Positions 4,183-31,746 of a DNA stretch of 32,000 nucleotides are shown one piece after another. This DNA is from Syntrophales bacterium (GTDB lineage: Bacteria > Desulfobacterota > Syntrophia > Syntrophales > UBA2185). The translations under genes and the position numbers were made by a program. The first letter of the stretch is position 1, and each line of letters starts with the position of its first letter. The stretch spans positions 31,608 through 63,607 of the forward strand of contig DATKLL010000003.1 in the NCBI GenBank assembly GCA_035542475.1. Reading direction: 5' to 3'. A model generated the notes under the pieces. That model was not told the origin of the DNA, made no database searches, and saw only the letters and a program-made list of their open reading frames with translations.

Positions 4183-4764
4183 TTATTCAAGGGGCGGGGA
4201 TGGAATTCGTAAAAGCCCTGCTATGTTTTGCTTATGGCTATAGAAGATGAAGAGGGCGGTTATGATCGTTCCTGCCATTGCTACTGTCTCGTATCCGCAC
4301 ACGATGACCGTCCCGACCGCTAGTACGATAGTCATGAAGAAAGAGGCGATGAAGGGAACGCGGACGATCCCGTATACGCCGAGCCAGACCAGAGTGGACA
4401 AGGCAACAGCAACGGGTGAGATCAGTGCAGTAAACCCGAGATAGCTTGCCACCCCTTTCCCACCACGAAACTGATGAAAGCAGGGGAAGCGGTTGCCGAC
4501 AACAAGCGTGAACCCCACCCAGGGAACATTGTTCAGAGAGAGAAAGTGCAGCGCCACCCAAGAAACGGCGATAGCTCTTGCTAAATCAAGCAAGAGTACG
4601 ACCCCTGCCCACAGCATACCGGCCTGCCGATAGACGTTCGTAGTTCCGGCTGTCCCGCTGAAATGATATCTCGGGTCATCCCTTCCCAGCATCTTGAAGA
4701 GCAGGATGGAGAAGTTGACAGAGCCTGCAATGTAAGCTGCCAGGAGCAGAATTGCCATTATCAT
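4183..4764 (-). CDS. plsY: Glycerol-3-phosphate acyltransferase PlsY-like (acyl-phosphate dependent), divergent motif 1
   Basis: Five or six TM helices, with 'FSGTAGTTNVYR' (canonical SGNxGATN) and 'FPCFHQFRGGKGVASYLG' (canonical F.GGKGVAT). It lies 36 nt downstream of the PKS-type dehydratase on the same strand. Confidence 0.8.
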   Translation of the reverse strand: MIMAILLLAAYIAGSVNFSILLFKMLGRDDPRYHFSGTAGTTNVYRQAGMLWAGVVLLLDLARAIAVSWVALHFLSLNNVPWVGFTLVVGNRFPCFHQFRGGKGVASYLGFTALISPVAVALSTLVWLGVYGIVRVPFIASFFMTIVLAVGTVIVCGYETVAMAGTIITALFIFYSHKQNIAGLLRIPSPPLE

Positions 4765-4800
4765 GACTTTATATCCCGCAAGTATTAATTTAAAATTCTC

Positions 4801-5688
4801 CTACCCCTGTTTATCAAAGGGACGGACAAGAGGACTGTACAAGACCCAACCTGGGGGCTTGACCCGGCCGCCGGAGACATCCCTCATAATCACGCCTCTG
4901 ATCTCCTCACAAAGATCACCAGACAAATCATAAATCCATATATCGAAGAGAAGGGATTCTCCGGGCACTGCAGCAGGCAATATACGGCAACGGTAGGTCT
5001 CACCGGGTATCGTCGATTTGACGATGATGCGCTCCTCAAAACCTACAGGGAAGGCCACTATATTGTAGTACCGCTGTCCCCAGGCACAGGCGACATGAAG
5101 CGCTCCGTCGAGGGGAAAAGGGGAACCAAGGGGCTCTGATGGAGCCTGATTAACAGCAGCATACACCTTTGCCACGGCACCGCTCTTAGCGAGAAGGATG
5201 TCACCTCTGACATTTTGATATGACGGCCCGAAGGGCACCAGGTCACTGTACAATTTTTCCGGGGACATCTTATAGGGAAACCCTTCTACTGCTGACGCCG
5301 TATCCATAGGCATTCCCGCGAAACGCTCCCCTGCAGCCGTGAAACTGACAGCGGTATGCACCTTCGTCCTGGTCATGGTACCTCTTATCCTGTCGATCGT
5401 GATCAATTTGGAAAATATGCGGCCGCTCTCATAGACCTCCAGTTCATTGCAGGCCTCTATGATCTCGGCATCCTTTTCAATATTCAGAAAACGGTCGAAT
5501 GTGGCTGAACTCATGCATCCGACATGCGCATCCGGCCGATAAGCCCTCACTGATGCGGCCAGGTGCTGAAGCTCCTCAACGGCGGGGAAAATGATTTTAC
5601 TCTCGAAATGGTGGTCCCTGAGATAGGGATGAACAGGGATAATAAGGGGAAGACGAATACGCTCTATCAGTCGGGACGTATCTTCCAT
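4801..5688 (-). CDS. Stand-alone polyketide-synthase-type dehydratase (double hotdog, PS-DH)
   Basis: N-terminal 'HPYLRDHHFESKIIFPAVE' fits the HxxxGxxxxP-type catalytic His motif with Ser at the Gly position. C-terminal 'PFPLDGALHVACAW' fits the DxxxH/Q motif. Confidence 0.7.
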   Translation of the reverse strand: MEDTSRLIERIRLPLIIPVHPYLRDHHFESKIIFPAVEELQHLAASVRAYRPDAHVGCMSSATFDRFLNIEKDAEIIEACNELEVYESGRIFSKLITIDRIRGTMTRTKVHTAVSFTAAGERFAGMPMDTASAVEGFPYKMSPEKLYSDLVPFGPSYQNVRGDILLAKSGAVAKVYAAVNQAPSEPLGSPFPLDGALHVACAWGQRYYNIVAFPVGFEERIIVKSTIPGETYRCRILPAAVPGESLLFDIWIYDLSGDLCEEIRGVIMRDVSGGRVKPPGWVLYSPLVRPFDKQG

Positions 5689-5691
5689 CTC

Positions 5692-7191
5692 TTAATTCCT
5701 TTTGAACATTTCCAGATCATCAAAACGGTTCATCATTTCTAAACGGCGGATATATCTTTGATACCTTTCCTCCCAGCCGATCCTGAGGATCTGCCTTTCC
5801 GTAAAAAATTTCATGATTGGTTTGGCCATATACGTCCAAAAGGACATCCATAATCTGCCTTGCTTTCCCGCAAATGACGATGGCTTCCACCAGCCCAAAG
5901 CAGTTTCCCTGTTATACCAGAAGGAATATTGCAGCTCATCGGATTCCAGATGCCTGGTTTTCACATTTGCCCAAAAGCCGCTGTAGCGTTCATAACGGTC
6001 GTGATTCGTGACTAATCCCTCACCGATCAGATAATCTCTGAGCCGGGTCTTGGGATAGGGCGTCAGCATCTGACAGTAGGATGCGTCCACCTCCAGCTCA
6101 TTAAGAAACTGATAGTTTTTTTTGATAGCCTCTTCGTCATCATCCGGCAGTCCGAAGATCAGACCGCCGATCACCATGATGCCATACCGGTGACAATTAT
6201 CTATAGCCTTTTTTGCCTCTTTTACAATGTCTGCTTTCCCCATGGTTCTGAGATTATTGCTCGACACATTTTCAATCCCAAGGAAAATGATCCGGAATCC
6301 CGCTTCGGACATTTTTTTCACCATAGCTTCATTTCGGGCCACGGACATACAGTCGGCCTGAACGACCAGCTGCAAGTTTTGATACCGCCTTTGTATGATG
6401 GCATCACAGACGGTAATCACCCATTTAGGGTTCAGAACCATATTGTCATCGGTGATGAAGATCAGCTTTGTTTTTTTGTTGAAGTAGATGTCGTCAAGAT
6501 CGGCAATGATGCGCTCAACAGGATATGTCCTGTAAGAGCGCCCGTACATGTGATTAATGCTGCAAAAATTACAACTGTGGGTGCAGCCGCGGGAAGTTTC
6601 CATAACCTCGATCCTGGAATACATGAAATGGTATCCTCCCGTCAGACGCCTGTGATCACGGATCGGCAGTTTCAGGCGGGACAGATCACAGAGTCCGCCC
6701 CGTTCGTTGTGCACCCACCTGCCGTCCTTTCTGTAAGAGAGGGATGGTATAGTTTCCAGTCTGTCCGTCCCTGCCAGGGCGTTCACCAGCCTGCGGAAGA
6801 CCTCTTCCCCTTCCCCCTTGATGATAAAGTCGATCTCATCCCCCTCTGGTGATGAGGCAATCTCCTCACTCATCAATGTGGCATGATAACCCCCGATGGC
6901 GATTTTTACATGCAGCAGGATACTTTTAATCAGTCTAATCAATGCAAGAGCGGTTGGATACTGCCATGTCATGGCAGACACGCCAACCAGGTCGGGGCGA
7001 ATTCTTTTTAAGGTCTTTGTCAGATAGGTCGAGATGTCTTTCCGTTTCCGGATCAGATCAATCAGATAGACGTGATGCCCTTCATCGACATTTCCTCCGA
7101 TGCAGGCGATGCCATGGTTGGGCATATGGAGCGCCATTTCGTGGATAACAATGGGTATGACATCCGGCATGGATATAAGGACAACTTTCAT
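5692..7191 (-). CDS. B12-binding-domain radical SAM enzyme (class B)
   Basis: N-terminal Rossmann-like cobalamin-binding region ('MKVVLISMPD...VGVSAMT') followed by the radical SAM cluster motif 'CTHSCNFCS' (CxxxCxxC). Its start overlaps the PlsC-like stop by 4 nt (7188-7191). Confidence 0.85.
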   Translation of the reverse strand: MKVVLISMPDVIPIVIHEMALHMPNHGIACIGGNVDEGHHVYLIDLIRKRKDISTYLTKTLKRIRPDLVGVSAMTWQYPTALALIRLIKSILLHVKIAIGGYHATLMSEEIASSPEGDEIDFIIKGEGEEVFRRLVNALAGTDRLETIPSLSYRKDGRWVHNERGGLCDLSRLKLPIRDHRRLTGGYHFMYSRIEVMETSRGCTHSCNFCSINHMYGRSYRTYPVERIIADLDDIYFNKKTKLIFITDDNMVLNPKWVITVCDAIIQRRYQNLQLVVQADCMSVARNEAMVKKMSEAGFRIIFLGIENVSSNNLRTMGKADIVKEAKKAIDNCHRYGIMVIGGLIFGLPDDDEEAIKKNYQFLNELEVDASYCQMLTPYPKTRLRDYLIGEGLVTNHDRYERYSGFWANVKTRHLESDELQYSFWYNRETALGWWKPSSFAGKQGRLWMSFWTYMAKPIMKFFTERQILRIGWEERYQRYIRRLEMMNRFDDLEMFKRN

Positions 7192-7976
7192 AAGTCCGCT
7201 TTTCTCTCCATGAGGGAGCGGGTATCAGCCATGAGACCGGAGAGGGTGAAGGCATCACTATTATAATCCAGTTCAAGGCTTCCGGCCAGTTCGACATCAA
7301 TCACATTTTTAGCACAGGTATTAAATAAGAACTTCCCCGGAGGAAAGAGTTTGCCGGTGTTCCGGATCAACACGATCTTGATCGGCGCCTTACAGAGCCT
7401 GGCAATCCTGAATGCACCTTTATCAAACGGTCCTATCCGGCCGTTTAAGGAACGCGTCCCCTCGGGAAATATAAATAGATTACCTCCTGAAGAAAGATAC
7501 TCCTTCATTTTTTTTATCTGGTCGATCATGTCTTCCAAAAATATATCTTCCGTCATGGAGGGTATATAACCTGACGTCTTCAATATCCAGCCGAAAACGG
7601 GAAGTCTGAAATAGTCGCTTCTTACGATGGTCTTCTGTCTTTCAAACAGAGATACAAATAGAATGGGATCAAGAAAGGAGAGATGATTGGCAATGATGAC
7701 CGAAGAGCGTATGGCGGAGACGTCTTTGGAAACATGCCATTTCACTCCGGGAACGATGGTCCGCAAAAGGTAGAAAAAAACCCGGTGGAGCTGATGGTTA
7801 AGTTTTTGAAAGGCCTCTTCAGGCTTGCCGGAAAAGAAAAACGCATACAAATAAAAAGGTGAAAAGAACAAGATGTATCCCATAATATAGCAAGTCCAGA
7901 GAATGACCGTAATGATGAAATCCTTGGCGGATTGTAACAGTGAAGGGTATTTGGTTTGCGTATCGTTTGTCGTCAT
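7188..7976 (-). CDS. 1-acyl-sn-glycerol-3-phosphate acyltransferase family (PlsC-like) protein
   Basis: N-terminal TM helices, HX4D motif 'ANHLSFLDP', and 'FPEGTRS' motif. Confidence 0.85.
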   Translation of the reverse strand: MTTNDTQTKYPSLLQSAKDFIITVILWTCYIMGYILFFSPFYLYAFFFSGKPEEAFQKLNHQLHRVFFYLLRTIVPGVKWHVSKDVSAIRSSVIIANHLSFLDPILFVSLFERQKTIVRSDYFRLPVFGWILKTSGYIPSMTEDIFLEDMIDQIKKMKEYLSSGGNLFIFPEGTRSLNGRIGPFDKGAFRIARLCKAPIKIVLIRNTGKLFPPGKFLFNTCAKNVIDVELAGSLELDYNSDAFTLSGLMADTRSLMERKADL

Positions 7977-8008: not shown

Positions 8009-8056
8009 AAAATCCCCCCATGCCCCCCCTTTACAAAAGAAGGGACGGGGGATTTT
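8009..8056 (-). other. Intergenic stem-loop between the KS and PlsC-like genes (possible attenuator or mRNA-stability element)
   Basis: A perfect 10-bp inverted repeat 'aaaatccccc' (8009-8018) / 'gggggatttt' (8047-8056) encloses a nested ccctt/aaggg stem. On the mRNA strand the GC core is followed by a U run. It sits in a 79-nt gap in an otherwise tightly packed operon. Confidence 0.4.
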
Positions 8057-9291
8057 CAAGACATCTTTTTTATGATCAGACTGGTGTTGACGCCGCCGAA
8101 GGCAAAGTTTTGGATGGTGGCGATCCGGACCGGCTGTTCTCTCAGTTTCACAACGTGGTTGATCATGGCGCATCTTTCATCTATCTCGTCCAGGTTCAGC
8201 GTCGGGGCTATAAATCCTTCCTCCATCAGATAAATCGCGATGATGGCCTCAATAGCGCCGCAGGAGCCCATCGTGTGCCCCATATAACTTTTCAATCCGA
8301 CAACACCGGGCAGATTTCCGTAAACGTCATAAATAGCCTGTGCTTCAATCACATCGCCCATCTTGGTTCCCGTCGCGTGGGCGCTGATAAGATCCATTTC
8401 ATCCGCGTTGATCCTGGCATCTTTCAGACCGATCCGTATAGTCTCTTTGATACCGTTCAGATTCGGCAGTATCAAATCACCGCCGTTGTTGTTGCAGGCA
8501 AACCCTATTACCTCGGCGAGCATGGGAGCGCCTCTCTTCCGTGCATATCCATACTCCTCCAGCATTACAGCCCCGGCCCCCTCCCCCACGACAAGGCCGT
8601 CCCTCATGGTATCAAACGGGCGCGGCGTCAGATGGGGCGTATCGTTAAAGGCCGTAGAACAAGCGAGGAGATTATCGAACACGGCGACGGTGGTCGTATC
8701 GTACTCATCGGCCCCTCCGCAAAGCATGGCGTCCTGCATACCGTATTTTATTGCTTCATAACCGTAGCCGATGGACTGGCTGCTTGTTGTGCATGCCGTG
8801 CATGATGATATGACGCGGCCTGTAATACCGAACATCTTGGTAATATTGACGGCTGTGGTATGAACCATGGATTTCAGGTAATCTACAGCGCCGATGGTAG
8901 AAAAATCATTTTGGGATGCACCGAAAAAAGTCCGGTAGATATCCCGTTGAACAGTAGGACTCCCGTGGGTCGAGCCGAAGGCAACGCCCAAACGGCCGGA
9001 CGTGACAAATCCCTGATCCAGACCGGCGGCCCCAATCACCTCTTTGGCTACCTGACACGCGTAATAGGCTACGGGCCCCATGGTTTTTCTGTGCTGACGC
9101 TTGAAATCGTACGATACGGGGTAATCAACGGTTCCAAACACCTTGGAGTGGATATGGGAAGACAACAGGCCGTCCTCACGCAAGGTTTTTACTCCGGAGA
9201 TCCCATTAACCAGGCTGTGAATAATTTCTTCTTTGGTGCGGCCGATGGGAGTGATTGATGAACACGCTGTAATGACTACCCTTCTTTCCAT
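8056..9291 (-). CDS. Beta-ketoacyl-ACP synthase (FabB/FabF-like KS)
   Basis: Cys-His-His motifs 'SSCTACTTS', 'HATGTKMGD' and 'GHTMGSCGAIE'. The ATG at 9291 is preceded by GGAG; the ORF track extends to 9321 and overlaps the upstream ACP. Confidence 0.85.
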   Translation of the reverse strand: MERRVVITACSSITPIGRTKEEIIHSLVNGISGVKTLREDGLLSSHIHSKVFGTVDYPVSYDFKRQHRKTMGPVAYYACQVAKEVIGAAGLDQGFVTSGRLGVAFGSTHGSPTVQRDIYRTFFGASQNDFSTIGAVDYLKSMVHTTAVNITKMFGITGRVISSCTACTTSSQSIGYGYEAIKYGMQDAMLCGGADEYDTTTVAVFDNLLACSTAFNDTPHLTPRPFDTMRDGLVVGEGAGAVMLEEYGYARKRGAPMLAEVIGFACNNNGGDLILPNLNGIKETIRIGLKDARINADEMDLISAHATGTKMGDVIEAQAIYDVYGNLPGVVGLKSYMGHTMGSCGAIEAIIAIYLMEEGFIAPTLNLDEIDERCAMINHVVKLREQPVRIATIQNFAFGGVNTSLIIKKMS

Positions 9292-9301: not shown

Positions 9302-9586
9302 TCATGTAAGACCGGCTTCACCGCCGGACAGTACCGGCCTTGTCCTAGTCAGCGACTCAATATAATCGCAGATCTGATTGATAGTCCGGATATCCATGGC
9401 CTGTTTCTTTTCCTCTTGGGTCAGTTCGTAACCGAGCATTTTTTCGATCTTGAGGAGCAGCTCGATGGCATCTATACTGTCAAACCCGTGCTTTTCTCTC
9501 AGGTTATCATCCAATCCCGGATTTTCAATCTCAAACTCCTTGCGAAAGAAATGGAGTATTTGAGTTATAATTTCATCGCGTGTCAT
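9302..9586 (-). CDS. Acyl carrier protein
   Basis: 94 aa from 'MTRDEIITQILHFF', with the phosphopantetheine-attachment motif 'GFDSIDAIELL'. The upstream part of ORF 9302-9757 is a spurious N-terminal extension. Confidence 0.85.
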   Translation of the reverse strand: MTRDEIITQILHFFRKEFEIENPGLDDNLREKHGFDSIDAIELLLKIEKMLGYELTQEEKKQAMDIRTINQICDYIESLTRTRPVLSGGEAGLT

Positions 9587-11382: not shown

Positions 11383-11412
11383 ATGTTCACAGTTTGAATA
11401 TTGCTCTTGAAT

Positions 11413-24027: not shown

Positions 24028-24069
24028 TGCCGTCGAAAGATAATGAATCTTCCTTGATCATTTAATATA

Positions 24070-24115: not shown

Positions 24116-24182
24116 ATAAAAATTTTTCCAGCACTAAAGACTGGCGTATGATTTTACCCGCCTGTCTGGAAAGGGGAATTAT

Positions 24183-24632: not shown

Positions 24633-24665
24633 TAAACCGGAGTGCTAAACAGCACTGAGATAAGG

Positions 24666-24705
24666 AAAAGGCAGAGTCTATTACAGCTCTGCCTTTTTTA
24701 TTTTT
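24666..24705 (+). terminator. Rho-independent terminator after mscL
   Basis: The stem 'aaaaggcagag' (24666-24676) / 'ctctgcctttt' (24687-24697) runs into a T-rich tract 'ttttttattttt'. Confidence 0.7.
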
Positions 24706-24745
24706 AAAATAGTTTCTCTTTACTTATAACACCATTATCTTTAAC

Positions 24746-26176: not shown

Positions 26177-29100
26177 CTACGCGACAATATCTTGGATGTC
26201 CATCCTGGCAACAAACCACCACTCTTCCTTGCCCGGCGCGCTGATTTCTGTACGCATGATTTCGAAATCGGCCTCTGATATCACGGAAGCGATGGCCTCC
26301 TTTGTCCGGAAGAGCGGCGTGCCTTTGTGAAGCCTAACCCTTGTCGATTCGAGCCAGCGCGTCCAGGGAAAAAGTTTTTCCGAAGGCACAGTCGCCCTGA
26401 TGATTAAAGTGCCGCCCGGACGAAGCTTCTCGTGGAGGCGCTGTAAAGTCAAACGCAATTCCTCATCGGTTATCAGATGGATCATATCCAGGAGGAGCGC
26501 CGTGTCTGCCATGCCGGGGACATCGGGTATATCAGGAGCGCGTCCGACCGTGACGGCGCCCCTTTTGCCTATCGCCCGCGACGCGAAACGCACACGCTTG
26601 CGGTCCGGCTCGATCCCGAATACCTTTGCGCGGGGGAAGATCTCGAGAAGCCAGATGGCGGGCACACCGTAACCGGTTCCCACATCGATGATGACTTCCG
26701 GCTGTTTGACAAAAGCAGCAAGTTTCGGGAACATGGGATCAAGGATGAGCTTGAAGCGGGCGAAGAGCCGCGGATAGGCCTCCATATGCCGGTACCGACC
26801 GACTGCACGCTGCCGGTGTCTTTTTGAACCGAGTGTAATCATCTCATCCTTCAGAGGCACAGGCGTAAACATTCGTTTCAGGATGGGCGGCGTAATCATC
26901 ACGGCGCCCAGGAAAGAATAGCCGATCCCCAGGGCAAGGCCCAGCCCCGCACTCTTCAGCATGGCATTGTCGGCAAGCACCAGGACGCCGAACCCCAGAA
27001 ATGTTGTGGCGAAGGAAAGAAAAACGGACAGTCGTATAAGCCCTAGAGAAGGATCGTACTCATCGAAATAGCGCTGGTAGGAGCGCACCAGATAAAGGGC
27101 ATAGTCCGTCCCCATCCCGATGACGACAACGGATACCATGAGGGTCGGAATGGTGAGGGGCTGCCCGGTGAGATTCAATGTGCCGAGGGTGCATATCAGG
27201 GCAAAGATCGTTGGCGCCATGCCGAGCAGGGTAAGCTGCCAGTCGAAAAAATAGAAGAAGGCGGTTAATATTGTGATGATGCCCACGATGACGGCCATTT
27301 TGATGAAGGCGGAAAGGAGGGCTGATTCAAACTTCTTGCCGAAAAGGGCCGGGTCGAATACCCTCGCCAGTCCCGCTGCCGTGAAGCGCCTGTAAAATTC
27401 CTCTCCGTTATATGATGGTCCCGGCGTCAGGGTCACAACCTCTACCCAGGAAGACCGATCCCGATTCACCGATATGCCGAAGAGACCGGAAAACTTCTCG
27501 GGCATATCGGTCCCCTGCCAGTCTTTTTTATTTATCAGCCTGAAAAAATGATCGAAAGCGGACGGTGAAAAACCGAGCGGCCTTGAAACTTCTCCCACAG
27601 TCTTTCGCAACCCGGCGACGCGATCCAGCCTCCAGAAGCTTCTCCAGGCCGCGAGATTTGTACGCGCCATCTCTTCGCCGGGGAACAACATGGACGGGAC
27701 AAACGCCTGCGAAAGGCGGCCGGCATCAACTTCCTGAGAAAGCAGCTCCGCCAGACGGTCGCTTTTCTGCTGGAGGTCCTGCCGATCGCTTCCCTCCAGC
27801 ATAAGATAAAGCCTGCTCATGATATCGCCCCACGTATCGCGGACGAGTTTCTCCGCGCTCAGCGTCTCCCGGCTGACGGCATTCATGGTATTTAAATCGA
27901 CATGAAATTCCGGCCTGGCAAAGAATAGCATGAAAACGGCAAAAGCTAGTGCGGCATACACTTTCCACATACCGGTCGCAGATGCGATTCTGTTTACAAA
28001 ACGCTGCAGGGGCAGATACGGCTGGCGTTTTTCCGGAGTGACCACAGGAAATAACAGGGGAAAGAAGGCATGGACAAATATGAAAGTGAACACGACTCCC
28101 AGCGCGGCAAACTGTCCTATCTGCGAGAGTGCGGGAAACCCGCTCACGGACAGGAACGCGAAGCTGACGGCGGTCGTCAGCATGGCAAGGAGACCCAGCG
28201 ACCAGACCTCCCTGGTGGTTTCTATGCCGCGCGTTTCGTACGGGCGGTCGAGAAAAAGCAGATACGTGATGCCGTAATCGACAGTAAAGGAAATGATCGC
28301 CCCTCCGAAGCCTACGGCCAGCATGGAAATGGAAGTGTGAAAAAGCGAATACACGAAGATCGCCATCATGGTCCCGGCAAAGGCAGGCAGCAGGGACAAG
28401 AGCCCTATCAGAGGTCTGGGAAAACCCACAAAGAGCAAAATGGCGATGGCGATAGTGGAAAATAAAACCGCCTTTCTGACGTTCCTTTTCGCGCTCAGCT
28501 CATTATCAAGAGCAGCGCGGTAGGCGCCGACGGGTGTCAGGATGAATCCATTTTGCCGGCCGTATTTCCCGTGCAGATTTTCGGAGATATTATCCAGCAG
28601 CGCCGTAACTTTTCTGGAGAACTGAGTATCCATACCGGAGCTCAAAGGCTCGGCGATGATCAGGATATGCTTCCCGTCTGATGAGACAAGATGGCCTTTG
28701 TAAATGCGCGCCCCCTTCACCGGCGAGAGAAACGACAAGCGCTCAAGGATGATATTTCGCAGGGCGAGGGGGTCATCGGAGATAAGCCCCGTCTGGCCTA
28801 TTCCTTCAAGAAGGTGCAGGGACGATATATAATCCTCCATGGTCTGCCGCACCTTTTCAGGCGCCAGCAGAGGTTTGACGTTTTCTTCAAGCTCCTTCTT
28901 GTTAAAGAGGATCGGGAGATGATCGACGATATACCGGATCAGCTCCGGCATAAGTTGACCGATATGACTGAAACCCACTTCCTTGAAGAGGCCGCTTGTC
29001 CGCATCTCCGCCTCAACTAGGTTAGCCCCCTGAACGAGTATGTCAACATCTCCGCCGGGATTTCCCACATCGACGACTACCCGGTCATGAATCGGGTGAT

Positions 29101-29272
29101 GCATAATGACATGACGGGCATCGGCTAAAACCGGATCGCTCTGTGGGAGAGAGGACAGGATGTCGGTGTCAAACCGGAGACGGTATATCCCCACCGTAAA
29201 CAGTCCTATGACAGCTAAGATCACGACGCTTACAAGGGACCATCTCAAAAGGTATTTATGCGCGTTCATCAT
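26177..29272 (-). CDS. MMPL/RND-superfamily lipid exporter fused to a C-terminal class I SAM-dependent methyltransferase
   Basis: Two repeats of a large periplasmic loop followed by a five- to six-helix TM bundle (about aa 1-790). The soluble C-terminal domain carries methyltransferase motif I 'VIIDVGTGYGVPAIW' and 'RPGGTLII'. Confidence 0.8.
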   Translation of the reverse strand: MMNAHKYLLRWSLVSVVILAVIGLFTVGIYRLRFDTDILSSLPQSDPVLADARHVIMHHPIHDRVVVDVGNPGGDVDILVQGANLVEAEMRTSGLFKEVGFSHIGQLMPELIRYIVDHLPILFNKKELEENVKPLLAPEKVRQTMEDYISSLHLLEGIGQTGLISDDPLALRNIILERLSFLSPVKGARIYKGHLVSSDGKHILIIAEPLSSGMDTQFSRKVTALLDNISENLHGKYGRQNGFILTPVGAYRAALDNELSAKRNVRKAVLFSTIAIAILLFVGFPRPLIGLLSLLPAFAGTMMAIFVYSLFHTSISMLAVGFGGAIISFTVDYGITYLLFLDRPYETRGIETTREVWSLGLLAMLTTAVSFAFLSVSGFPALSQIGQFAALGVVFTFIFVHAFFPLLFPVVTPEKRQPYLPLQRFVNRIASATGMWKVYAALAFAVFMLFFARPEFHVDLNTMNAVSRETLSAEKLVRDTWGDIMSRLYLMLEGSDRQDLQQKSDRLAELLSQEVDAGRLSQAFVPSMLFPGEEMARTNLAAWRSFWRLDRVAGLRKTVGEVSRPLGFSPSAFDHFFRLINKKDWQGTDMPEKFSGLFGISVNRDRSSWVEVVTLTPGPSYNGEEFYRRFTAAGLARVFDPALFGKKFESALLSAFIKMAVIVGIITILTAFFYFFDWQLTLLGMAPTIFALICTLGTLNLTGQPLTIPTLMVSVVVIGMGTDYALYLVRSYQRYFDEYDPSLGLIRLSVFLSFATTFLGFGVLVLADNAMLKSAGLGLALGIGYSFLGAVMITPPILKRMFTPVPLKDEMITLGSKRHRQRAVGRYRHMEAYPRLFARFKLILDPMFPKLAAFVKQPEVIIDVGTGYGVPAIWLLEIFPRAKVFGIEPDRKRVRFASRAIGKRGAVTVGRAPDIPDVPGMADTALLLDMIHLITDEELRLTLQRLHEKLRPGGTLIIRATVPSEKLFPWTRWLESTRVRLHKGTPLFRTKEAIASVISEADFEIMRTEISAPGKEEWWFVARMDIQDIVA

Positions 29273-29281
29273 GAAAAACTC

Positions 29282-30016
29282 TCAATCCCTCTTTACATAA
29301 GAAGGAGGTTTAAGGAAGGGCAATACACATAATCTAGTGAAAATCAGACGGCTGAAGGCGGCGGCATTCCGGCAGAAATCGACAAACCCGCGATAATGCG
29401 AGACCCGCTGGTCATCGGCTTCGTACGTTACCTGGACGGGTGTCTCCATGACAGGCATGCCGTGCCAGTTTGCCCTGACTAGGATTTCAACCTCAAACTG
29501 GAAGCGCCTCGCCCTCACTCCAAGATGCATTGACTCCGGAAGCGGATACAGCCTGAATCCGCTCTGCGTATCCCTGATTGCTGGGCCTCCCGACGCCCGC
29601 ACCCAGAAGTTGGAAAAAGCCCTGCCGAAACGACTCTTCCAGGGAACATGACGGTGTTCCATTCCTTCCCTGCAGCCGACAATGATCGGCCTTTGGCCGG
29701 ACGGTACAGCTTTAATAAGCTCCAGGGTATCTTCGGGATGATGCTGTCCGTCGGCGTCCATGGTGACGGCCCAGTCCGCAAGTGGTGCTGCAGCAGCGAA
29801 ACCGGTCATAATAGCCGCGCCTTTTCCTCTGTTGATGTTGTGGCGGATGATGGTTATGGATGGTATGTTTTTTATGCGGTCGTAGGTGGAATCCGTCGAG
29901 CCGTCATCGACAACAAACAGCGGCAATTGAAGCTTCAGGGCTTCCCTAACCACCTGTGCAACCTTGCCCTCATGATTGAAAGCGGGAATTACGACGGCAA
30001 CGCGGTCTTTTTCCAT
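29282..30016 (-). CDS. Family 2 glycosyltransferase (DPM1/polyprenol-phosphate GT-like)
   Basis: 'VAVVIPAFNHEGKV', 'LFVVDDGSTDST' and the DxD motif 'TMDADGQHHPED'. Confidence 0.85.
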   Translation of the reverse strand: MEKDRVAVVIPAFNHEGKVAQVVREALKLQLPLFVVDDGSTDSTYDRIKNIPSITIIRHNINRGKGAAIMTGFAAAAPLADWAVTMDADGQHHPEDTLELIKAVPSGQRPIIVGCREGMEHRHVPWKSRFGRAFSNFWVRASGGPAIRDTQSGFRLYPLPESMHLGVRARRFQFEVEILVRANWHGMPVMETPVQVTYEADDQRVSHYRGFVDFCRNAAAFSRLIFTRLCVLPFLKPPSYVKRD

Positions 30017-30027
30017 CAGTCCACTTT

Positions 30028-30303
30028 CTAGTTCCTCTCCCTAAACCTTCTTACCGCTTCGGGGATCTTATCAGGATGTTCCATAAGCAAGACCAGGTCT
30101 TTGAATACTGTATCTTCACGCAGCAGCTCCAGCGGGAGGTCGACATGGAAAGTGTCATGTAAAATAATCTGTATATTCACGGCCACCATCGAATCCCAGT
30201 CCGGGATTTCACCCAGCTTCGTCTCCGGTGTGATAGATCCGTTACCGATCTCAAATAAATTATCCAGAAGGACTTCTTTCATCTTTTGCCAAATATCATT
30301 CAT
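30028..30303 (-). CDS. Acyl carrier protein-like phosphopantetheine-binding protein
   Basis: 91 aa with the attachment motif 'IPDWDSMVAVNI'. It sits between the fabH and GT2 genes with 11-14 nt gaps. Confidence 0.75.
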   Translation of the reverse strand: MNDIWQKMKEVLLDNLFEIGNGSITPETKLGEIPDWDSMVAVNIQIILHDTFHVDLPLELLREDTVFKDLVLLMEHPDKIPEAVRRFRERN

Positions 30304-30317
30304 GCCTCTTCCTCATA

Positions 30318-31298
30318 TCATATGCGTATCAGGTTCGCCCCCCAGGAAAGCCCGCCGCCAAAAGCCACTGTCACGATGAGATTGCCTTTCTTGACAACGC
30401 CGGCGGAAATTGCCTCATCGAGCGCAATCAGTACAGACGCGGCGGCAGTGTTGCCGTAAGAGGAGAGGTTCATGAAAAACCTGTCCGCGGATACGGAGAG
30501 ATTGCTCGCTATCCTGTAAATTATGTTCGCGTTGGCCTGATGGCAGATGAAACACTTGATGTCGTCTATTTTTACATCAGCCTCTTTCAAAAGCTGAAGA
30601 ATGATCTCAGAACCTTTATCCACGGCAAAATTAAATATGTCGATGCCCTTCATCTTGAATAATGCCAGCCTGGAATTCGTCATCTTCGCAAACGGCAGCA
30701 TCGTCCCTCCCGCTGGTACACTGATGGTATCACTGCCGCTACCATCAGTCCTCAAACAGGAATGCAGAACTCCTTTAAAAGAAGTGCCGCCGGCTTGAAA
30801 GAGAACAGCGCCAGCACCGTCTCCGAAAAAGGGATAGGACGAAAAATCTTTCTGGTTCATGATCTTCGAATAGACTTCCGAGGCGATTAAAAGGATATTC
30901 CTACAGTATCCCGATTTAATGAGGGCATCCGCCATTGCAATACCGAAGGCGCTTCCCGAACAGACCGAATTGATGTCAAAGGCAAAGGCCTTCTTCGCAC
31001 CGATAATATGCTGCACCCGCGTTCCTGTCGCGGGCTGCATGCGGTCCGGAGAGGAGGTGGCAAGAATAATACCTTCCACATTCTCCGGGGGATAGCCGAC
31101 ATTATTGAGGCACTTCATCGCTGCCTGCACAGCCAGATCCGATGTGCATTCCTTATCGGAGGCCACCCTTCGGAAAAATACGCCGGTTTTTTTACCGATC
31201 AGATGAATCGCCTCCTGTGGAAATTGTGTCAGATCTTCGTTGCCAACAATTTTCTCCGGCAGATAGCTGCCGGTTGATATGATAACTGAATTTCGCAT
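30318..31298 (-). CDS. fabH: 3-oxoacyl-ACP synthase III (KAS III)
   Basis: Cys-His-Asn triad contexts 'FDINSVCSGSAFG', 'FICHQANANII' and 'YGNTAAASVLIAL'; 326 aa. Confidence 0.9.
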   Translation of the reverse strand: MRNSVIISTGSYLPEKIVGNEDLTQFPQEAIHLIGKKTGVFFRRVASDKECTSDLAVQAAMKCLNNVGYPPENVEGIILATSSPDRMQPATGTRVQHIIGAKKAFAFDINSVCSGSAFGIAMADALIKSGYCRNILLIASEVYSKIMNQKDFSSYPFFGDGAGAVLFQAGGTSFKGVLHSCLRTDGSGSDTISVPAGGTMLPFAKMTNSRLALFKMKGIDIFNFAVDKGSEIILQLLKEADVKIDDIKCFICHQANANIIYRIASNLSVSADRFFMNLSSYGNTAAASVLIALDEAISAGVVKKGNLIVTVAFGGGLSWGANLIRI

Positions 31299-31326
31299 TT
31301 CGATGGCACACCCGTCTTGCTAATGA

Positions 31327-31746
31327 TCAAAATCCCAGGGCCTGCCTGATTTCATCCGGGATGGTGAACATGATTTCCATCTCCGGCGCTTTTACGGCAA
31401 CCTGTTCAGTTCTCCCGCGTGTACATACTTTTCCGTCAGCTTTAAGCCTGATTTCAAAATCCACGACAATCTTCGTCTTCCCCTCAACCACAGTAGCCTT
31501 GCAGATAAATTCATCACCATGCCTCAGAGGATAGATGTGTTTTGTGGTTGTTTTGATGATGGGGAACAGATACTGTGTCCTCAGATAAAACTCATAGAGA
31601 TCAACACCAACCTGAGCGAAAAGAGCCACTCGTGCGTCCTCAAAGTAAAGAAAATAATTTCCGTGCCACACGATCTGCATGGGATCAAGATCATAAAAAG
31701 GCACCTTGTGTGTAATCTCGCAGCTGGGGTGATGTTTACCTGTCAT
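31327..31746 (-). CDS. 4HBT-family hotdog thioesterase (YbgC-like)
   Basis: 'VPFYDLDPMQIVWHGNYFLYFEDARV' motif; 139 aa. It is the first gene of the sub-operon. Confidence 0.8.
   Translation of the reverse strand: MTGKHHPSCEITHKVPFYDLDPMQIVWHGNYFLYFEDARVALFAQVGVDLYEFYLRTQYLFPIIKTTTKHIYPLRHGDEFICKATVVEGKTKIVVDFEIRLKADGKVCTRGRTEQVAVKAPEMEIMFTIPDEIRQALGF

What the first reader, a model, noticed from the sequence alone, without database searches (positions are those of the whole stretch)
4183..31746. Orphan 27.5-kb FAS/PKS-like lipid locus with four radical SAM enzymes, five condensing enzymes and four carrier proteins, linked to glycerolipid assembly and export
Motifs read directly from the translations identify 24 same-strand genes:
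- Chain building: FabH, three complete KS, one KS-CLF fusion and four ACPs.
- Chain processing: a FabZ-like and a PKS-type dehydratase, two 4HBT thioesterases and a CrtI-like flavoenzyme.
- Radical chemistry: two B12-binding rSAM enzymes and two non-B12 rSAM enzymes.
- Head group, lipid anchoring and export: a NodB deacetylase, a GT2, an MMPL-methyltransferase fusion, and PlsY-, PlsC- and LpxL-like acyltransferases.

Part of the set (KS plus CLF, FabZ-like dehydratase, ACPs, 4HBT thioesterase, LpxL-like acyltransferase, GT2, MMPL, methyltransferase) matches the aryl-polyene (APE) cluster parts list. The rSAM quartet, the CrtI-like enzyme, the PKS dehydratase and PlsC/PlsY do not.

From memory, the order FabZ-ACP-rSAM-rSAM-KS-KS-TE-ACP-KS-PlsC-B12 rSAM, plus KS/CrtI-like/rSAM/deacetylase, resembles the clusters bioinformatically proposed for ladderane synthesis in anammox bacteria. 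I recall that those clusters also have homologues in non-ladderane Deltaproteobacteria and no experimentally established product.

Working hypothesis: an unusual acyl chain (polyunsaturated, C-methylated or cyclised) is built on dedicated ACPs, esterified to glycerol-3-phosphate or a lyso-lipid, glycosylated, and exported to the outer membrane.
Basis: partly seen in the sequence, partly recalled or inferred. Interest (0 to 1): 0.9.

Follow-up and report, generated by a model that had tools for sequence, protein, structure and literature searches.

The report
Orphan radical-SAM lipid gene cluster
A Syntrophales bacterium carries a large, conserved gene cluster, related to both aryl-polyene pigment-lipid clusters and the unsolved "ladderane" clusters of anammox bacteria, that probably makes an unusual membrane lipid; this cluster type has been known since 2009 but its product has not.

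Summary
Three corrections apply:
- Three plus-strand genes (OmpA-family, MscL and an unknown, 22891-25234) split the locus into two transcription units.
- A 25th minus-strand gene, a GIY-YIG nuclease at 11415-11732, is a mobile insertion.
- The fourth carrier protein (ACP4) is only weakly supported.

The window comes from a Syntrophales metagenome-assembled genome. The B12-binding radical SAM (rSAM) enzyme at 17071-18417 passes NCBIfam TIGR04072 ("lipid biosynthesis B12-binding/radical SAM protein").

Relatives of that enzyme were found in 571 stretches of species-representative genomes. In 41 long loci a core keeps the same order and strand across Syntrophales, Smithella, Desulfobacterales, Spirochaetota and Leptospirales: ACP-B12 rSAM-(NodB)-dehydratase-ACP-rSAM-rSAM-KS-KS-thioesterase-dehydratase-PlsY. 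This is therefore not an accidental juxtaposition of housekeeping genes.

Twelve window genes have homologues in the characterised E. coli aryl-polyene (APE) cluster, including the PlsC-like enzyme (ApeD). TIGR04072 itself sits inside APE-type clusters in Flammeovirga, Desulfomarina and a Planctomycetota genome.

The locus is best read as an APE-superfamily lipid pathway with an added rSAM/fatty-acid-synthase module. It is the "ladderane-like" cluster type first described in 2009. No product has been reported in the literature searched. Verdict: new member of a known orphan kind, moderate interest.

The parts
4183..4764 (-). PlsY-family glycerol-3-phosphate acyltransferase paralogue; last gene of the conserved core
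   Evidence: PF02660 E=1.4e-33. TIGR00023 scores 90.7 bits, below the 137.2 cutoff, so it is divergent. It sits at the same end of the core in 14 of 41 loci within the flank limit.
4801..5688 (-). PKS-type (PS-DH) dehydratase
   Evidence: PF14765 E=1.3e-7. No PDB sequence relative. Conserved after TE1 in 27 of 41 loci.
5692..7191 (-). B12-binding rSAM enzyme, BchE/HpnR-like (not TIGR04072)
   Evidence: PF02310 plus PF04055. Best NCBIfam matches are BchE and HpnR, all below cutoff. CxxxCxxC at residue 203. Part of the movable ACP1-KS1-PlsC-B12 rSAM module.
7188..7976 (-). PlsC-type lysophospholipid acyltransferase; homologue of ApeD
   Evidence: PF01553. 25% identity to E. coli CFT073 ApeD, E=8e-17, with the HX4D and FPEGTR motifs kept. 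ApeD is also PF01553.
8056..9291 (-). KS1, active ketosynthase; homologue of ApeR
   Evidence: Pfam KS N- and C-terminal domains. Cys-His-His intact. 38.6% identity over 420 aa to ApeR, E=6e-83. Likely start is the ATG at 9291.
9302..9586 (-). ACP1; ApeF-like carrier protein
   Evidence: PF00550. DSI motif; likely start at Met58 of the ORF. 29% identity to ApeF.
9636..10115 (-). TE1, 4HBT/YbgC-type thioesterase; ApeK-like
   Evidence: PF13279 and PF03061. TIGR00051 80.9 bits, above the 68.7 cutoff. 32% identity to ApeK. Present in 30 of 41 loci.
10117..11418 (-). KS2, FabF-like active ketosynthase
   Evidence: TIGR03150 379.6 bits, below the 493.75 cutoff. Triad intact. Present in 31 of 41 loci, 65-88% identity.
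11415..11732 (-). GIY-YIG nuclease ORF; mobile insertion, not part of the pathway
   Evidence: PF01541 E=4e-17. Absent between KS3 and KS2 in L001, L002, L003 and L008. Homologues lie at other junctions of the operon in L017 and L032.
11799..13097 (-). KS3, FabF-like active ketosynthase
   Evidence: TIGR03150 317.9 bits, below cutoff. Triad intact. Present in 33 of 41 loci.
13091..14089 (-). rSAM1, non-B12 rSAM enzyme with a C-terminal Cys cluster
   Evidence: PF04055. CNLRCKGC, plus a CC-x6-C-x2-C motif shared with rSAM2. The 120 best relatives listed are 79-95% identical and nearly all exactly 332 aa. Fold is nearest SkfB, anSME, CteB, PqqE and SuiB, from a low-confidence model.
14169..15248 (-). 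rSAM2, paralogue of rSAM1
   Evidence: PF04055. 27% identity to rSAM1, E=7e-34. Weak PDB sequence hits to SkfB, GDGT-MAS (7tol), SuiB and PqqE.
15277..15543 (-). ACP2
   Evidence: PF00550 E=8e-11. DSM motif. Present in 33 of 41 loci.
15650..16024 (-). ApeI/FabZ-like single hot-dog dehydratase
   Evidence: PF22818 ApeI-like and PF07977. Best PDB hit is ApeI 6qsr_A, E=3e-8; anammox amxFabZ (7qv0, 8ayb) scores only about 1e-3. 31% identity to E. coli ApeI.
16247..17071 (-). NodB-type (CE4) deacetylase
   Evidence: PF01522 E=9e-29. A homologue follows the KS and CLF genes in the APE-type cluster L084 (36% identity). L087 carries a PF01522 gene at the same position.
17071..18417 (-). TIGR04072 lipid-biosynthesis B12-binding rSAM enzyme; marker of the cluster type
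   Evidence: 382.2 bits against a cutoff of 360. 100% identical to an NCBI Syntrophales MAG protein. Best PDB relatives are TsrM (6wte) and AprD4.
18414..19895 (-). CrtI/CrtD-like FAD amine-oxidase-family enzyme
   Evidence: PF01593 and PF13450. CrtD and CrtISO hits are far below cutoff. Present in only 8 of 41 loci.
19892..22072 (-). KS-CLF fusion: active KS (ApeO-like) joined to a degenerate KS (ApeC-like)
   Evidence: Single 726-aa ORF. PF00109 and PF02801, plus PF13723. N-terminal half: best PDB hit 9s5h_B, E=5e-61, and 34% identity to ApeO. C-terminal half: 31% identity to ApeC, with catalytic Cys->Asp and His->Glu.
22222..22497 (-). ACP3; ApeE-like carrier and first gene of the core operon
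   Evidence: NF006617 71.1 bits against a cutoff of 70. 44% identity to ApeE. Present in 37 of 41 loci.
22891..25234 (+). Interruption: OmpA-family protein, MscL and a 162-aa unknown; not part of the pathway
   Evidence: PF00691 and PF01741. Conserved in 0 of 41 loci. Lower GC, 0.447. L001 has a co-directional B12 rSAM gene here instead. The same interruption appears in contigs from three independent metagenome samples.
25225..26166 (-). LpxL-family acyltransferase; homologue of the C-terminal half of ApeJ
   Evidence: PF03279. 28% identity to ApeJ residues 363-545, E=7e-18.
26177..29272 (-). MMPL/RND transporter fused to a C-terminal SAM methyltransferase; ApeM-like
   Evidence: PF03176 and PF13649. 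HpnN/HAE3-like. 19-26% identity to ApeM. MMPL-methyltransferase fusions also occur in L084 and L087.
29282..30016 (-). GT2 glycosyltransferase; homologue of the N-terminal half of ApeJ
   Evidence: PF00535. Best NCBIfam match is polyprenyl-phospho-GalNAc synthase PpgS, far below cutoff. 34% identity to ApeJ, E=6e-29.
30028..30303 (-). ACP4, tentative carrier protein
   Evidence: No Pfam hit. NF003757 E=1e-4. DWDSM motif.
30318..31298 (-). FabH-type KAS III; probable starter-unit condensing enzyme
   Evidence: NF006829 313.6 bits, above the 249 cutoff. TIGR00747 283.1 bits, just below the 292.1 cutoff.
31327..31746 (-). TE2, 4HBT thioesterase; ApeK-like
   Evidence: PF13279 and PF03061. 33% identity to ApeK, E=7e-21.

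Best explanation
The locus is a dedicated biosynthetic cluster for a specialised membrane glycerolipid. It combines two parts.

1. An aryl-polyene-lipid (APEL) type chassis.
2. A radical-SAM/fatty-acid-synthase module that marks the orphan 'ladderane-like' cluster type.

Shown here: the gene identities, the active-site states, co-conservation of the core, and homology to named ape genes.

Inferred by analogy with the APEL pathway and the anammox enzyme studies:
- ACP3, the KS-CLF fusion and the ApeI-like dehydratase correspond to ApeE, ApeO/ApeC and ApeI. Using housekeeping FabD and FabG, they would initiate and extend a short unsaturated chain. The TIGR04072 B12 rSAM enzyme, and where present the CrtI-like flavoenzyme, would modify that chain.
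- ACP2 with KS2/KS3, the paralogous rSAM1/rSAM2 pair (probably a heteromer with auxiliary Fe-S clusters), the PS-DH dehydratase and TE1 would extend the chain and radically modify it by C-C bond formation or C-H functionalisation.
- The PlsY-like enzyme would place that chain on glycerol-3-phosphate.
- ACP1, KS1 and the PlsC-like enzyme correspond to ApeF, ApeR and ApeD. They would build a second chain and put it on the sn-2 position of the lyso-lipid. The BchE/HpnR-like B12 rSAM enzyme would tailor it.
- GT2 plus the LpxL-like enzyme correspond to a split ApeJ. They would add a hexosamine head group and acylate it; NodB would deacetylate it.
- The MMPL-methyltransferase fusion (ApeM-like) would export the lipid towards the outer membrane.
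- FabH and ACP4 would supply a starter unit.

The chemical structure of the product is unknown.
For: Identities:
- HMM identities of all genes.
- TIGR04072 is above its cutoff.

Co-conservation:
- The order ACP3-(KS-CLF)-(CrtI)-B12 rSAM-(NodB)-DH-ACP2-rSAM2-rSAM1-KS3-KS2-TE1-PSDH-PlsY is conserved on one strand in loci from Syntrophales, Smithella, Desulfobacterales, Spirochaetota and Leptospirales.
- rSAM1 stays 73-92% identical across them.
- In the closest relative, L001, the export genes and the core form one co-directional array.
- Many junctions are tight, from 4-base overlaps to gaps of about 10 bases.

Direct homology to the characterised E. coli CFT073 ape genes:
- KS1 to ApeR, 39%.
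- KS-CLF to ApeO, 34%, and to ApeC, 31%.
- ACP3 to ApeE, 44%; ACP1 to ApeF.
- Dehydratase to ApeI; PlsC-like to ApeD.
- GT2 and LpxL-like to the two halves of ApeJ.
- Thioesterases to ApeK; MMPL to ApeM.

Other support:
- TIGR04072 lies inside APE-type clusters in Flammeovirga, Desulfomarina and a Planctomycetota MAG.
- APEL is a glycerol-phosphate-GalNAc lipid. Two type II PKS chains made on two ACPs are installed by ApeD and ApeJ, and the lipid is exported by ApeM (bioRxiv 10.1101/2020.12.19.423268).
- The anammox FabF2/FabFmut pair acts as a KS/CLF heterodimer that decarboxylates malonyl-ACP and prefers C6-C8 chains (bioRxiv 10.64898/2026.05.19.726425). The fused KS-CLF here is consistent with that.
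- rSAM1 and rSAM2 resemble SPASM/twitch cross-linking enzymes and, weakly, GDGT-MAS.
Against: - No product is known for any member of this cluster type (PMC13459092; PMC4790861).
- The locus lacks ApeQ (KR), ApeP, ApeH or an ammonia lyase (aryl starter), LolA/ApeL and ApeN.
- The modules are separable. Smithella-type loci lack KS-CLF, CrtI, KS1, PlsC and the export genes within 10 kb.
- In this window the export block is a separate transcription unit behind three opposite-strand genes.
- Identities to ape proteins are only 19-44%.
- The rSAM reactions are assigned from weak fold and sequence similarity (pLDDT 60, TM 0.4-0.46).
- PlsY normally needs acyl-phosphate, and no PlsX or fatty-acid kinase is in the locus.
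- No expression data exist for this organism.
Confidence: 0.6

Rival explanations
1. Two or three independent pathways lie side by side. One is a 'ladderane-like' rSAM fatty-acid core (ACP3..PlsY). Another is a separate APE-like glycolipid and export set (TE2..LpxL). The ACP1-KS1-PlsC-B12 rSAM cassette may be a third. They would not make one product.
For: - The modules occur separately or in other positions in relatives.
- The export genes are within 10 kb of the marker in only a few of 41 loci.
- Three opposite-strand genes and a strong terminator-like hairpin after MscL separate the blocks here.
Against: - In L001 (77% relative) MMPL-MT, LpxL, a B12 rSAM gene, ACP3 and the rest are contiguous and co-directional.
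- In Flammeovirga, Desulfomarina and the Planctomycetota MAG the same families (KS1/ACP1-type, KS-CLF-type, TIGR04072, GT2, LpxL, MMPL) sit in one cluster.
- Homologues of all three blocks are parts of the single APEL pathway.
Confidence: 0.2
2. The cluster is an anaerobic route to polyunsaturated fatty acids or hydrocarbons, as Rattray et al. proposed for Desulfotalea and Kuenenia. The CrtI-like and rSAM enzymes would act as oxygen-independent desaturases.
For: - D. psychrophila, which carries a syntenic cluster, contains polyunsaturated hydrocarbons and no ladderanes (PMC2649909).
- The APE-type KS-CLF and ApeI-like dehydratase, with no enoyl reductase in the locus, would give conjugated unsaturation.
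Against: - The CrtI-like gene is present in only 8 of 41 loci, so it is not core.
- The link between that cluster and the hydrocarbons was never tested.
- It does not explain the B12 rSAM enzymes, NodB, GT2 or the two glycerolipid acyltransferases.
Confidence: 0.12
3. It is a canonical aryl-polyene or flexirubin pigment cluster.
For: Twelve genes are homologous to ape genes. ACP3 passes NF006617. The ApeI-like and Ketoacyl-synt_2 domains are present.
Against: - There is no ApeQ KR, no ApeP-like dehydratase, no aryl-activating ligase or ammonia lyase, and no LolA.
- The most conserved genes (rSAM1, rSAM2, KS2, KS3, ACP2, PS-DH, PlsY) have no specific counterpart among the ape genes: ACP2, KS2 and KS3 give only secondary hits to ape genes better matched by other window genes, and the rest give none.
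Confidence: 0.05
4. It makes ladderane (concatenated cyclobutane) lipids, as in anammox bacteria.
For: TIGR04072 membership and the shared architecture with Kuenenia Cluster I and kuste3335-3352. The KS domain's best PDB hit is 9s5h_B, probably amxFabF2.
Against: - Ladderanes are reported only from anammox Planctomycetota, and D. psychrophila with a syntenic cluster has none (PMC2649909).
- The family occurs across many non-anammox phyla.
- The dehydratase and the ACPs are not specifically anammox-like.
Confidence: 0.02
5. It is an accidental juxtaposition of housekeeping fab and pls genes.
For: FabH passes a FabH subfamily cutoff. The KS genes are FabF-like.
Against: - PlsY, FabZ and FabF equivalog scores are all well below cutoff.
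- There are four ACPs and four rSAM enzymes.
- The order is conserved across phyla.
- No FabD, FabG or FabI is present.
Confidence: 0.01

Closest known systems
Proposed ladderane clusters of anammox bacteria (Kuenenia 'Cluster I' KustE3603-3608 and kuste3335-3352) and their Desulfotalea/Geobacter/Pelobacter homologues (Rattray 2009)
   Same: - A TIGR04072-type B12 rSAM enzyme next to an ACP, a KS plus a catalytically dead KS (CLF-like), and a phytoene-desaturase-like flavoenzyme.
- A second set with a FabZ-like dehydratase, an ACP, two adjacent non-B12 rSAM enzymes, FabF paralogues and a polysaccharide-deacetylase-like protein.
- Product not experimentally established.
   Different: - Here both sets are merged in one operon, and KS and CLF are fused into one protein.
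- PlsY- and PlsC-like enzymes and an APE-type export block are attached.
- The dehydratase is closer to ApeI than to amxFabZ.
- The host is a Syntrophales bacterium, a group not known to make ladderanes.
- A direct sequence comparison with Kuenenia proteins could not be run, apart from the PDB entries.
Aryl-polyene lipid (APEL) cluster apeA-R of E. coli CFT073 / Xenorhabdus doucetiae
   Same: - Homologues of ApeR, ApeO, ApeC, ApeE, ApeF, ApeI, ApeD, ApeJ (split in two), ApeK and ApeM.
- The same logic: chains built on dedicated ACPs are attached to a glycerolipid and a sugar, and the lipid is then exported.
   Different: - No KR (ApeQ), ApeP, aryl-activating ApeH, LolA/ApeL, ApeN or ApeG.
- Adds four rSAM enzymes, a CrtI-like enzyme, NodB, PS-DH, PlsY, FabH and two further FabF-like KS.
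- Identities are only 19-44%.
TIGR04072-containing APE/flexirubin-type clusters (Flammeovirga aprica L084, Planctomycetota MAG L087, Desulfomarina profundi L085)
   Same: - TIGR04072 (35-38% identical).
- An ACP, KS, CLF and NodB gene run in L084 and L087 (no deacetylase in the L085 stretch).
- KS1/ACP1-type pair, LpxL-like enzyme, GT2, MMPL, with a methyltransferase domain fused in L084 and L087, and 4HBT thioesterase in L084 and L087.
   Different: - Those clusters keep KR, ApeP, LolA and an aryl starter enzyme (ammonia lyase or AMP ligase).
- They lack the ACP2-rSAM2-rSAM1-KS3-KS2-PSDH-PlsY module; L085 and L087 instead have a single SPASM rSAM gene.
Highly reducing type II PKS KS/CLF pairs (ishigamide Iga11/Iga12; ApeO/ApeC)
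   Same: The KS half ranks next to Iga11 (6kxd_A) and ApeO (6qsp_A) in the PDB. The CLF half weakly matches Iga12, ApeC and 9s5h_C (probably amxFabFmut).
   Different: The two are covalently fused. The CLF half is very divergent: Cys->Asp, second His->Glu.
SPASM/twitch rSAM cross-linking enzymes and the lipid C-C bond-forming GDGT-MAS/Tes
   Same: rSAM1 and rSAM2 have the rSAM core plus a C-terminal Cys cluster. Their nearest sequence and fold neighbours are SkfB, anSME, CteB, PqqE and SuiB, and weakly 7tol and Tes.
   Different: Similarity is weak: E=1e-5 to 4e-4, TM 0.4-0.46. They are far below every family cutoff, and the C-terminal domain was not modelled with confidence.

Membership tests
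TIGR04072-marked 'ladderane-like' lipid cluster | B12-binding rSAM enzyme scoring above the TIGR04072 equivalog cutoff | tested here: met
   382.2 bits against a cutoff of 360, full length 2-448. NCBI gives the identical protein this name.
TIGR04072-marked 'ladderane-like' lipid cluster | Two adjacent non-B12 rSAM enzymes flanked by an ACP, a FabZ-like dehydratase and FabF paralogues (the Kuste3342/3343 = DP1853/1855 arrangement) | tested here: met
   DH-ACP2-rSAM2-rSAM1-KS3-KS2, conserved in 31-35 of 41 loci depending on the gene. Orthology to the Kuenenia genes themselves is taken from the description in PMC2649909 and was not computed.
TIGR04072-marked 'ladderane-like' lipid cluster | Active KS paired with a catalytically dead KS (amxFabF2/amxFabFmut type) | tested here: met
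   The fusion protein has an N-terminal half with Cys-His-His and a C-terminal half with Asp and Glu in their place. The N-terminal half's best PDB hit is 9s5h_B, E=5e-61. That this entry is the anammox heterodimer is my inference.
TIGR04072-marked 'ladderane-like' lipid cluster | Sequence orthology to each Kuenenia cluster protein (reciprocal best hits) | not testable with these tools
   No Kuenenia or Brocadia sequences could be retrieved. The searches listed only closer relatives or unnamed representatives.
Ladderane producers | Ladderane fatty acids or ethers in the lipids | not testable with these tools
   This needs chemistry. The literature reports ladderanes only in anammox bacteria and none in D. 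psychrophila (PMC2649909).
Aryl-polyene (APE) cluster (core set of Grammbitter et al.: apeO/R, apeE/F, apeC, apeI/P, apeQ, apeM) | KS ApeO and ApeR homologues, ACPs ApeE and ApeF, CLF ApeC | tested here: met
   39%, 34%, 44%, 29% and 31% identity respectively. PF13723 is present in the fusion.
Aryl-polyene (APE) cluster | Dehydratase pair ApeI plus ApeP | tested here: inconclusive
   An ApeI-like domain is present (PF22818). No ApeP-like PF22817 hit and no tblastn hit to apeP. A PS-DH protein is present instead.
Aryl-polyene (APE) cluster | Dedicated ketoreductase ApeQ | tested here: not met
   No SDR/KR domain in any ORF of the window. No hit to apeQ.
Aryl-polyene (APE) cluster | Aryl starter activation (ApeH ligase or aromatic ammonia lyase) | tested here: not met
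   No AMP-binding or Lyase_aromatic domain in the window. FabH is the only candidate priming enzyme.
Aryl-polyene (APE) cluster | RND/MMPL exporter ApeM | tested here: met
   PF03176. 19-26% identity to ApeM over more than 580 aa, and 26% over 711 aa to the Desulfomarina MMPL.
Housekeeping FAS II / Pls genes | Scores above the equivalog cutoffs for FabF, FabZ, PlsY and AcpP | tested here: not met
   - FabF 380, 318 and 276 bits against a cutoff of 494.
- FabZ 44.5 against 113.
- PlsY 90.7 against 137.
- ACPs below TIGR00517.
- Only FabH passes, and only a subfamily model.

The most novel reading that the evidence does not exclude
The most conserved block is ACP2-rSAM2-rSAM1-KS3-KS2 with the TIGR04072 enzyme. 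rSAM1 is about 80% identical across phyla. This block may build a previously undescribed class of radical-SAM-modified fatty acyl chain, for example carbocyclic, cross-linked or methylated at unactivated carbons. The carriers would be common anaerobes (Syntrophales, Smithella, Desulfobacterales, some Spirochaetota). The same enzymes might perform the shared early steps of ladderane synthesis in anammox bacteria. If so, culturable non-anammox carriers would be the missing genetic and biochemical entry point to that pathway.
Probability: 0.3. Interest if true: 0.85.

Novelty: new member of a known kind. Interest (0 to 1): 0.5.

Why it matters
How ladderane lipids are made has been open for about twenty years. 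No in vitro activity has been reported, and there is no genetic access to any producer (bioRxiv 10.64898/2026.05.19.726425). A 2026 review counts ladderanes and jawsamycin as the only fatty-acyl lipids proposed to be modified by rSAM enzymes (PMC13459092).

This window shows the same enzyme families in a compact, near-complete arrangement in a non-anammox anaerobe, wired to glycerolipid acyltransferases and an APE-type export set.

The comparative results give concrete handles:
- A minimal 13-gene core.
- A natural KS-CLF fusion, consistent with the heterodimer model.
- Carriers in culture: Desulfomarina profundi and the aerobic Flammeovirga aprica. D. psychrophila carries the cluster type that Rattray described (PMC2649909).
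- A clear homology bridge to the chemically solved APEL pathway.

The value of the finding lies in making that question testable. It does not reveal a new kind of system.

Tried and rejected
Led nowhere:
- A DNA search of KS1 against E. coli genomes found nothing. I found the CFT073 ape cluster by fetching an annotated region instead.
- Rfam and the tRNA scan found nothing, so there is no riboswitch such as a cobalamin element.
- Searches meant to reach named anammox homologues listed only closer Syntrophales/Desulfobacterota relatives or unnamed representatives. The one Planctomycetota hit (L087) is an APE-type cluster and not evidently anammox.
- The PS-DH protein has no PDB sequence relative.
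- The AlphaFold model of rSAM1 was only moderate (pLDDT 60, C-terminal Cys domain unmodelled). The fold search gives a subfamily, not a reaction.
- A literature search for TIGR04072 or its name returned no paper. No paper assigning a product to this cluster type was found.

Considered and rejected:
- Housekeeping juxtaposition: scores are below the equivalog cutoffs and the synteny is conserved.
- Assembly chimera at the OmpA/MscL interruption: the same arrangement appears in contigs from three independent metagenome samples.
- Specific kinship of the dehydratase and the ACPs to amxFabZ and amxACP: ApeI and generic ACPs score better.
- LpxL-like as the ApeD counterpart: it matches the C-terminal half of ApeJ, and ApeD matches the PlsC-like gene.

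Full report
**What is in the window**

In transcription order, block A runs from 31746 down to 25225:
- 4HBT thioesterase TE2
- FabH
- a tentative 91-aa ACP4
- GT2
- an MMPL/RND transporter with a fused C-terminal methyltransferase
- an LpxL-family acyltransferase

Block B runs from 22497 down to 4183:
- ACP3
- a single-ORF KS-CLF fusion
- a CrtI-like flavoenzyme
- a B12 rSAM enzyme
- a NodB deacetylase
- an ApeI/FabZ-like dehydratase
- ACP2
- rSAM2 and rSAM1
- KS3
- a GIY-YIG ORF
- KS2
- thioesterase TE1
- ACP1
- KS1
- a PlsC-like acyltransferase
- a second B12 rSAM enzyme
- a PS-DH dehydratase
- a PlsY-like acyltransferase

Three plus-strand genes lie between the blocks, at 22891-25234: an OmpA-family protein, MscL and a 162-aa unknown.

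Motif inspection shows:
- CxxxCxxC in all four rSAM enzymes.
- An intact Cys-His-His triad in KS1, KS2, KS3 and the N-terminal half of the fusion.
- Asp and Glu replacing the catalytic Cys and the second His in the C-terminal, CLF-like half.
- A DS[IM] serine motif in all four ACPs.

Refined starts give many tight junctions, from 4-base overlaps to gaps of about 10 bases, as expected for operons. The locus has no ketoreductase, enoyl reductase or malonyl transferase. No Rfam family or tRNA is present.

**Origin and marker**

The B12 rSAM enzyme at 17071-18417 scores 382 bits on TIGR04072, "lipid biosynthesis B12-binding/radical SAM protein" (model name rSAM_ladder_B12), against a cutoff of 360. 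It is 100% identical to a protein that NCBI names this way in a Syntrophales metagenome-assembled genome, on a 79.6-kb contig.

**Co-conservation**

A scan of one genome per species found 571 stretches encoding relatives of this protein. The best 80 come from Syntrophales, Smithella, Desulfobacterales, Desulfatiglandales, Spirochaetota and Leptospirales.

I ran tblastn with all window proteins against the 41 loci of at least 20 kb. A core keeps the same order and strand: ACP3-(KS-CLF)-(CrtI)-B12 rSAM-(NodB)-DH-ACP2-rSAM2-rSAM1-KS3-KS2-TE1-PSDH-PlsY. Each core gene is present in 30-37 of the 41 loci, except where the 10-kb flank cuts it off. rSAM1 stays 73-92% identical, and the 120 best relatives listed in the wider protein search are nearly all exactly 332 aa long.

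None of the three plus-strand genes is ever conserved (0 of 41). This rules out a chance juxtaposition of housekeeping genes. So do the sub-cutoff scores on the FabF, FabZ, PlsY and AcpP equivalog models.

**Modularity**

The cluster is built from modules:
- Smithella-type loci lack KS-CLF and CrtI. There a FabA-like gene, a DUF268-family gene of unknown function and a small membrane protein precede ACP3.
- The ACP1-KS1-PlsC-B12 rSAM cassette lies between TE1 and PS-DH in the window and its closest relatives. In Desulfobacteraceae it lies upstream of ACP3.
- The export genes are next to the core mainly in the closest relative, L001. There MMPL-MT, LpxL, another B12 rSAM gene, ACP3 and the rest form one co-directional array with no OmpA/MscL genes.
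- The interruption seen in the window recurs in contigs from three independent metagenome samples, so it is not an assembly artefact.

Beyond the window end lies a divergent operon. It encodes a third B12 rSAM enzyme (HpnJ/BchE-like), a 712-aa coiled-coil protein and a 122-aa membrane protein. Homologues of the 122-aa protein sit directly upstream of ACP3 in Smithella-type loci. The functional cluster probably extends past coordinate 32000.

**Relation to the 'ladderane' clusters**

- Rattray et al. 2009 (PMC2649909) described Kuenenia clusters with rSAM enzymes, phytoene-desaturase-like enzymes and many FabF paralogues. They reported striking synteny with Desulfotalea psychrophila and similar clusters in Geobacter and Pelobacter. 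D. psychrophila contained polyunsaturated hydrocarbons but no ladderanes.
- Kuenenia 'Cluster I' encodes amxACP, amxFabZ, amxFabF2, the dead amxFabFmut, a phytoene-desaturase homologue and a B12 rSAM enzyme. FabF2 and FabFmut form a KS/CLF-like heterodimer that decarboxylates malonyl-ACP and prefers C6-C8 chains (bioRxiv 10.64898/2026.05.19.726425).
- Heterologous expression of 34 candidate genes failed to produce ladderanes (PMC4790861).
- A review dated August 2026 still lists only hypotheses (PMC13459092).
- antiSMASH 'ladderane' calls in Desulfobacterota and other phyla are expressed in anoxic water but remain unexplained (PMC9902471).

Direct sequence tests against anammox proteins were possible only through the PDB.
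- The KS half of the fusion hits 9s5h_B best (E=5e-61, against 1.6e-51 for a canonical FabF). That entry holds two different KS chains, so it is probably the amxFabF heterodimer; this is my inference.
- The dehydratase is closer to ApeI (3e-8) than to amxFabZ (about 1e-3; entries 7QV0 and 8AYB are confirmed as amxFabZ in PMC10139942).
- ACP2 and ACP3 are not specifically anammox-like.

**Relation to aryl-polyene clusters**

I fetched the characterised E. coli CFT073 ape cluster and compared it directly.

| Window gene | ape homologue | Identity |
|---|---|---|
| KS1 | ApeR | 39% over 420 aa |
| KS-CLF, N-terminal half | ApeO | 34% |
| KS-CLF, C-terminal half | ApeC | 31% |
| ACP3 | ApeE | 44% |
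| ACP1 | ApeF | 29% |
| Dehydratase | ApeI | 31% |
| GT2 | ApeJ, N-terminal half | 34% |
| LpxL-like | ApeJ, residues 363-545 | 28% |
| PlsC-like | ApeD (HX4D and FPEGTR kept) | 25% |
| TE1, TE2 | ApeK | 32-33% |
| MMPL | ApeM | 19-26% |

TIGR04072 proteins themselves sit inside APE- or flexirubin-type clusters:
- In Flammeovirga aprica, alongside an aromatic ammonia lyase, KR, ApeP, ApeI, LolA, NodB, GT2 and an MMPL fusion.
- In a Planctomycetota genome.
- In the cultured Desulfomarina profundi, alongside an amine oxidase, a PlsC-like enzyme, an AMP ligase and a SPASM rSAM enzyme.

These three are TIGR04072 relatives whose neighbourhoods I inspected; two of them carry the NCBI family name. 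How common this embedding is across the family was not measured.

What has no APE counterpart is the most conserved block: ACP2-rSAM2-rSAM1-KS3-KS2, together with PS-DH and PlsY.

The APE end product is known. It is a glycerol-phosphate-GalNAc lipid carrying three chains:
- a saturated chain;
- a conjugated C26:5 chain, proposed to be made on ApeF and placed at sn-2 by ApeD;
- the aryl polyene, made on ApeE and attached to the sugar by ApeJ.

ApeM exports the lipid (bioRxiv 10.1101/2020.12.19.423268).

**Most likely mechanism**

The steps below are inferred unless marked as shown. By homology, the window encodes an APEL-like assembly with three dedicated chain-building sets.
1. ACP3, KS-CLF and the ApeI-like dehydratase would initiate and extend a short unsaturated chain. 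The TIGR04072 enzyme would modify it. That enzyme's nearest solved relatives are the methyltransferase TsrM and AprD4. The CrtI-like enzyme would also act where present.
2. ACP2 with KS2/KS3, PS-DH, TE1 and the rSAM1/rSAM2 pair would extend and radically modify a chain. rSAM1 and rSAM2 are paralogues (27% identity, shown) with a shared C-terminal CC-x6-C-x2-C motif. Their nearest relatives are SPASM/twitch cross-linking enzymes, and weakly the lipid C-C-forming GDGT-MAS. The PlsY-like enzyme would put that chain on glycerol-3-phosphate.
3. ACP1, KS1 and the PlsC-like enzyme (the ApeF, ApeR and ApeD homologues) would make a second chain and attach it at sn-2. The BchE/HpnR-like B12 rSAM enzyme would tailor it.
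4. GT2 plus the LpxL-like enzyme (a split ApeJ) and NodB would handle the sugar head group, and the MMPL-methyltransferase fusion would export the lipid. FabH and ACP4 would provide a starter.

Housekeeping FabD, FabG and possibly PlsX would be needed. The nature of the rSAM chemistry and the product structure remain unknown.

**Verdict**

- The locus is a new member of a known orphan kind: the TIGR04072-marked 'ladderane-like' branch of the aryl-polyene cluster superfamily. It is not a new kind of system.
- Its interest is moderate. It bears on a long-standing open problem and offers a compact arrangement, a natural KS-CLF fusion and, through relatives, culturable test organisms. However, the cluster type has been in the literature since 2009, NCBI names its marker protein, and relatives were found in 571 stretches of species-representative genomes.

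Noticed in passing
window 11415-11732 (-); L017 20684-20941; L032 17003-17257: A 105-aa GIY-YIG nuclease ORF is carried on an insertion of about 380 bp between KS3 and KS2. Close relatives (L001, L002, L003, L008) have those two genes no more than 40 nt apart. Homologous GIY-YIG ORFs (48-51% identical) sit at different junctions of the same operon in two Smithella genomes. This suggests a mobile element that repeatedly lands in this cluster.
   Followed up: partly
window 22891-25234 (+): OmpA-family, MscL and a 162-aa unknown gene interrupt the cluster on the opposite strand. GC is lower there (0.447), and a strong hairpin terminator follows MscL at 24664-24699. In the 77%-identical relative L001 a co-directional 499-aa B12 rSAM gene occupies this position instead. 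The interruption is present in contigs from three independent metagenome samples (L081-L083).
   Followed up: partly
L081 5411-9492 (just beyond window coordinate 32000, opposite strand to the cluster): A divergent operon encodes a third B12 rSAM enzyme (483 aa, HpnJ/BchE-like), a 712-aa coiled-coil protein and a 122-aa protein with hydrophobic stretches suggesting 2-3 membrane helices. Homologues of the 122-aa protein lie immediately upstream of ACP3 in Smithella-type loci, and L079 has all three genes embedded in its cluster. The cluster therefore probably extends beyond the window.
   Followed up: partly
L081 1188-2297 and 1-452: About 8-10 kb beyond the window end lie a genuine cyclopropane-fatty-acyl-phospholipid synthase (NF008686, 570 bits against a cutoff of 400) and a Cu-type superoxide dismutase. 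These are another lipid-modifying gene and an oxidative-stress gene near the cluster.
   Followed up: no
window 19892-22072 (-): KS and CLF are fused into one 726-aa protein, also in L001. They are separate adjacent genes in Flammeovirga, Desulfomarina, E. coli and anammox bacteria. This natural fusion fits the KS/CLF heterodimer recently shown for the anammox FabF2/FabFmut pair.
   Followed up: partly
window 1-4016 (+): Upstream on the plus strand are a ResA-like thiol-disulfide oxidoreductase, a 106-aa unknown, a DedA/VTT membrane protein and a pyridine-nucleotide-disulfide oxidoreductase. The first 2 kb has low GC (0.39). None of these genes is conserved next to the cluster in other loci.
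   Followed up: no
L035 7796-9694: Smithella-type loci carry a FabA-like dehydratase, a DUF268-family protein of unknown function and the small membrane protein in front of ACP3, in place of KS-CLF and CrtI. This suggests a different way of making the unsaturated primer.
   Followed up: no
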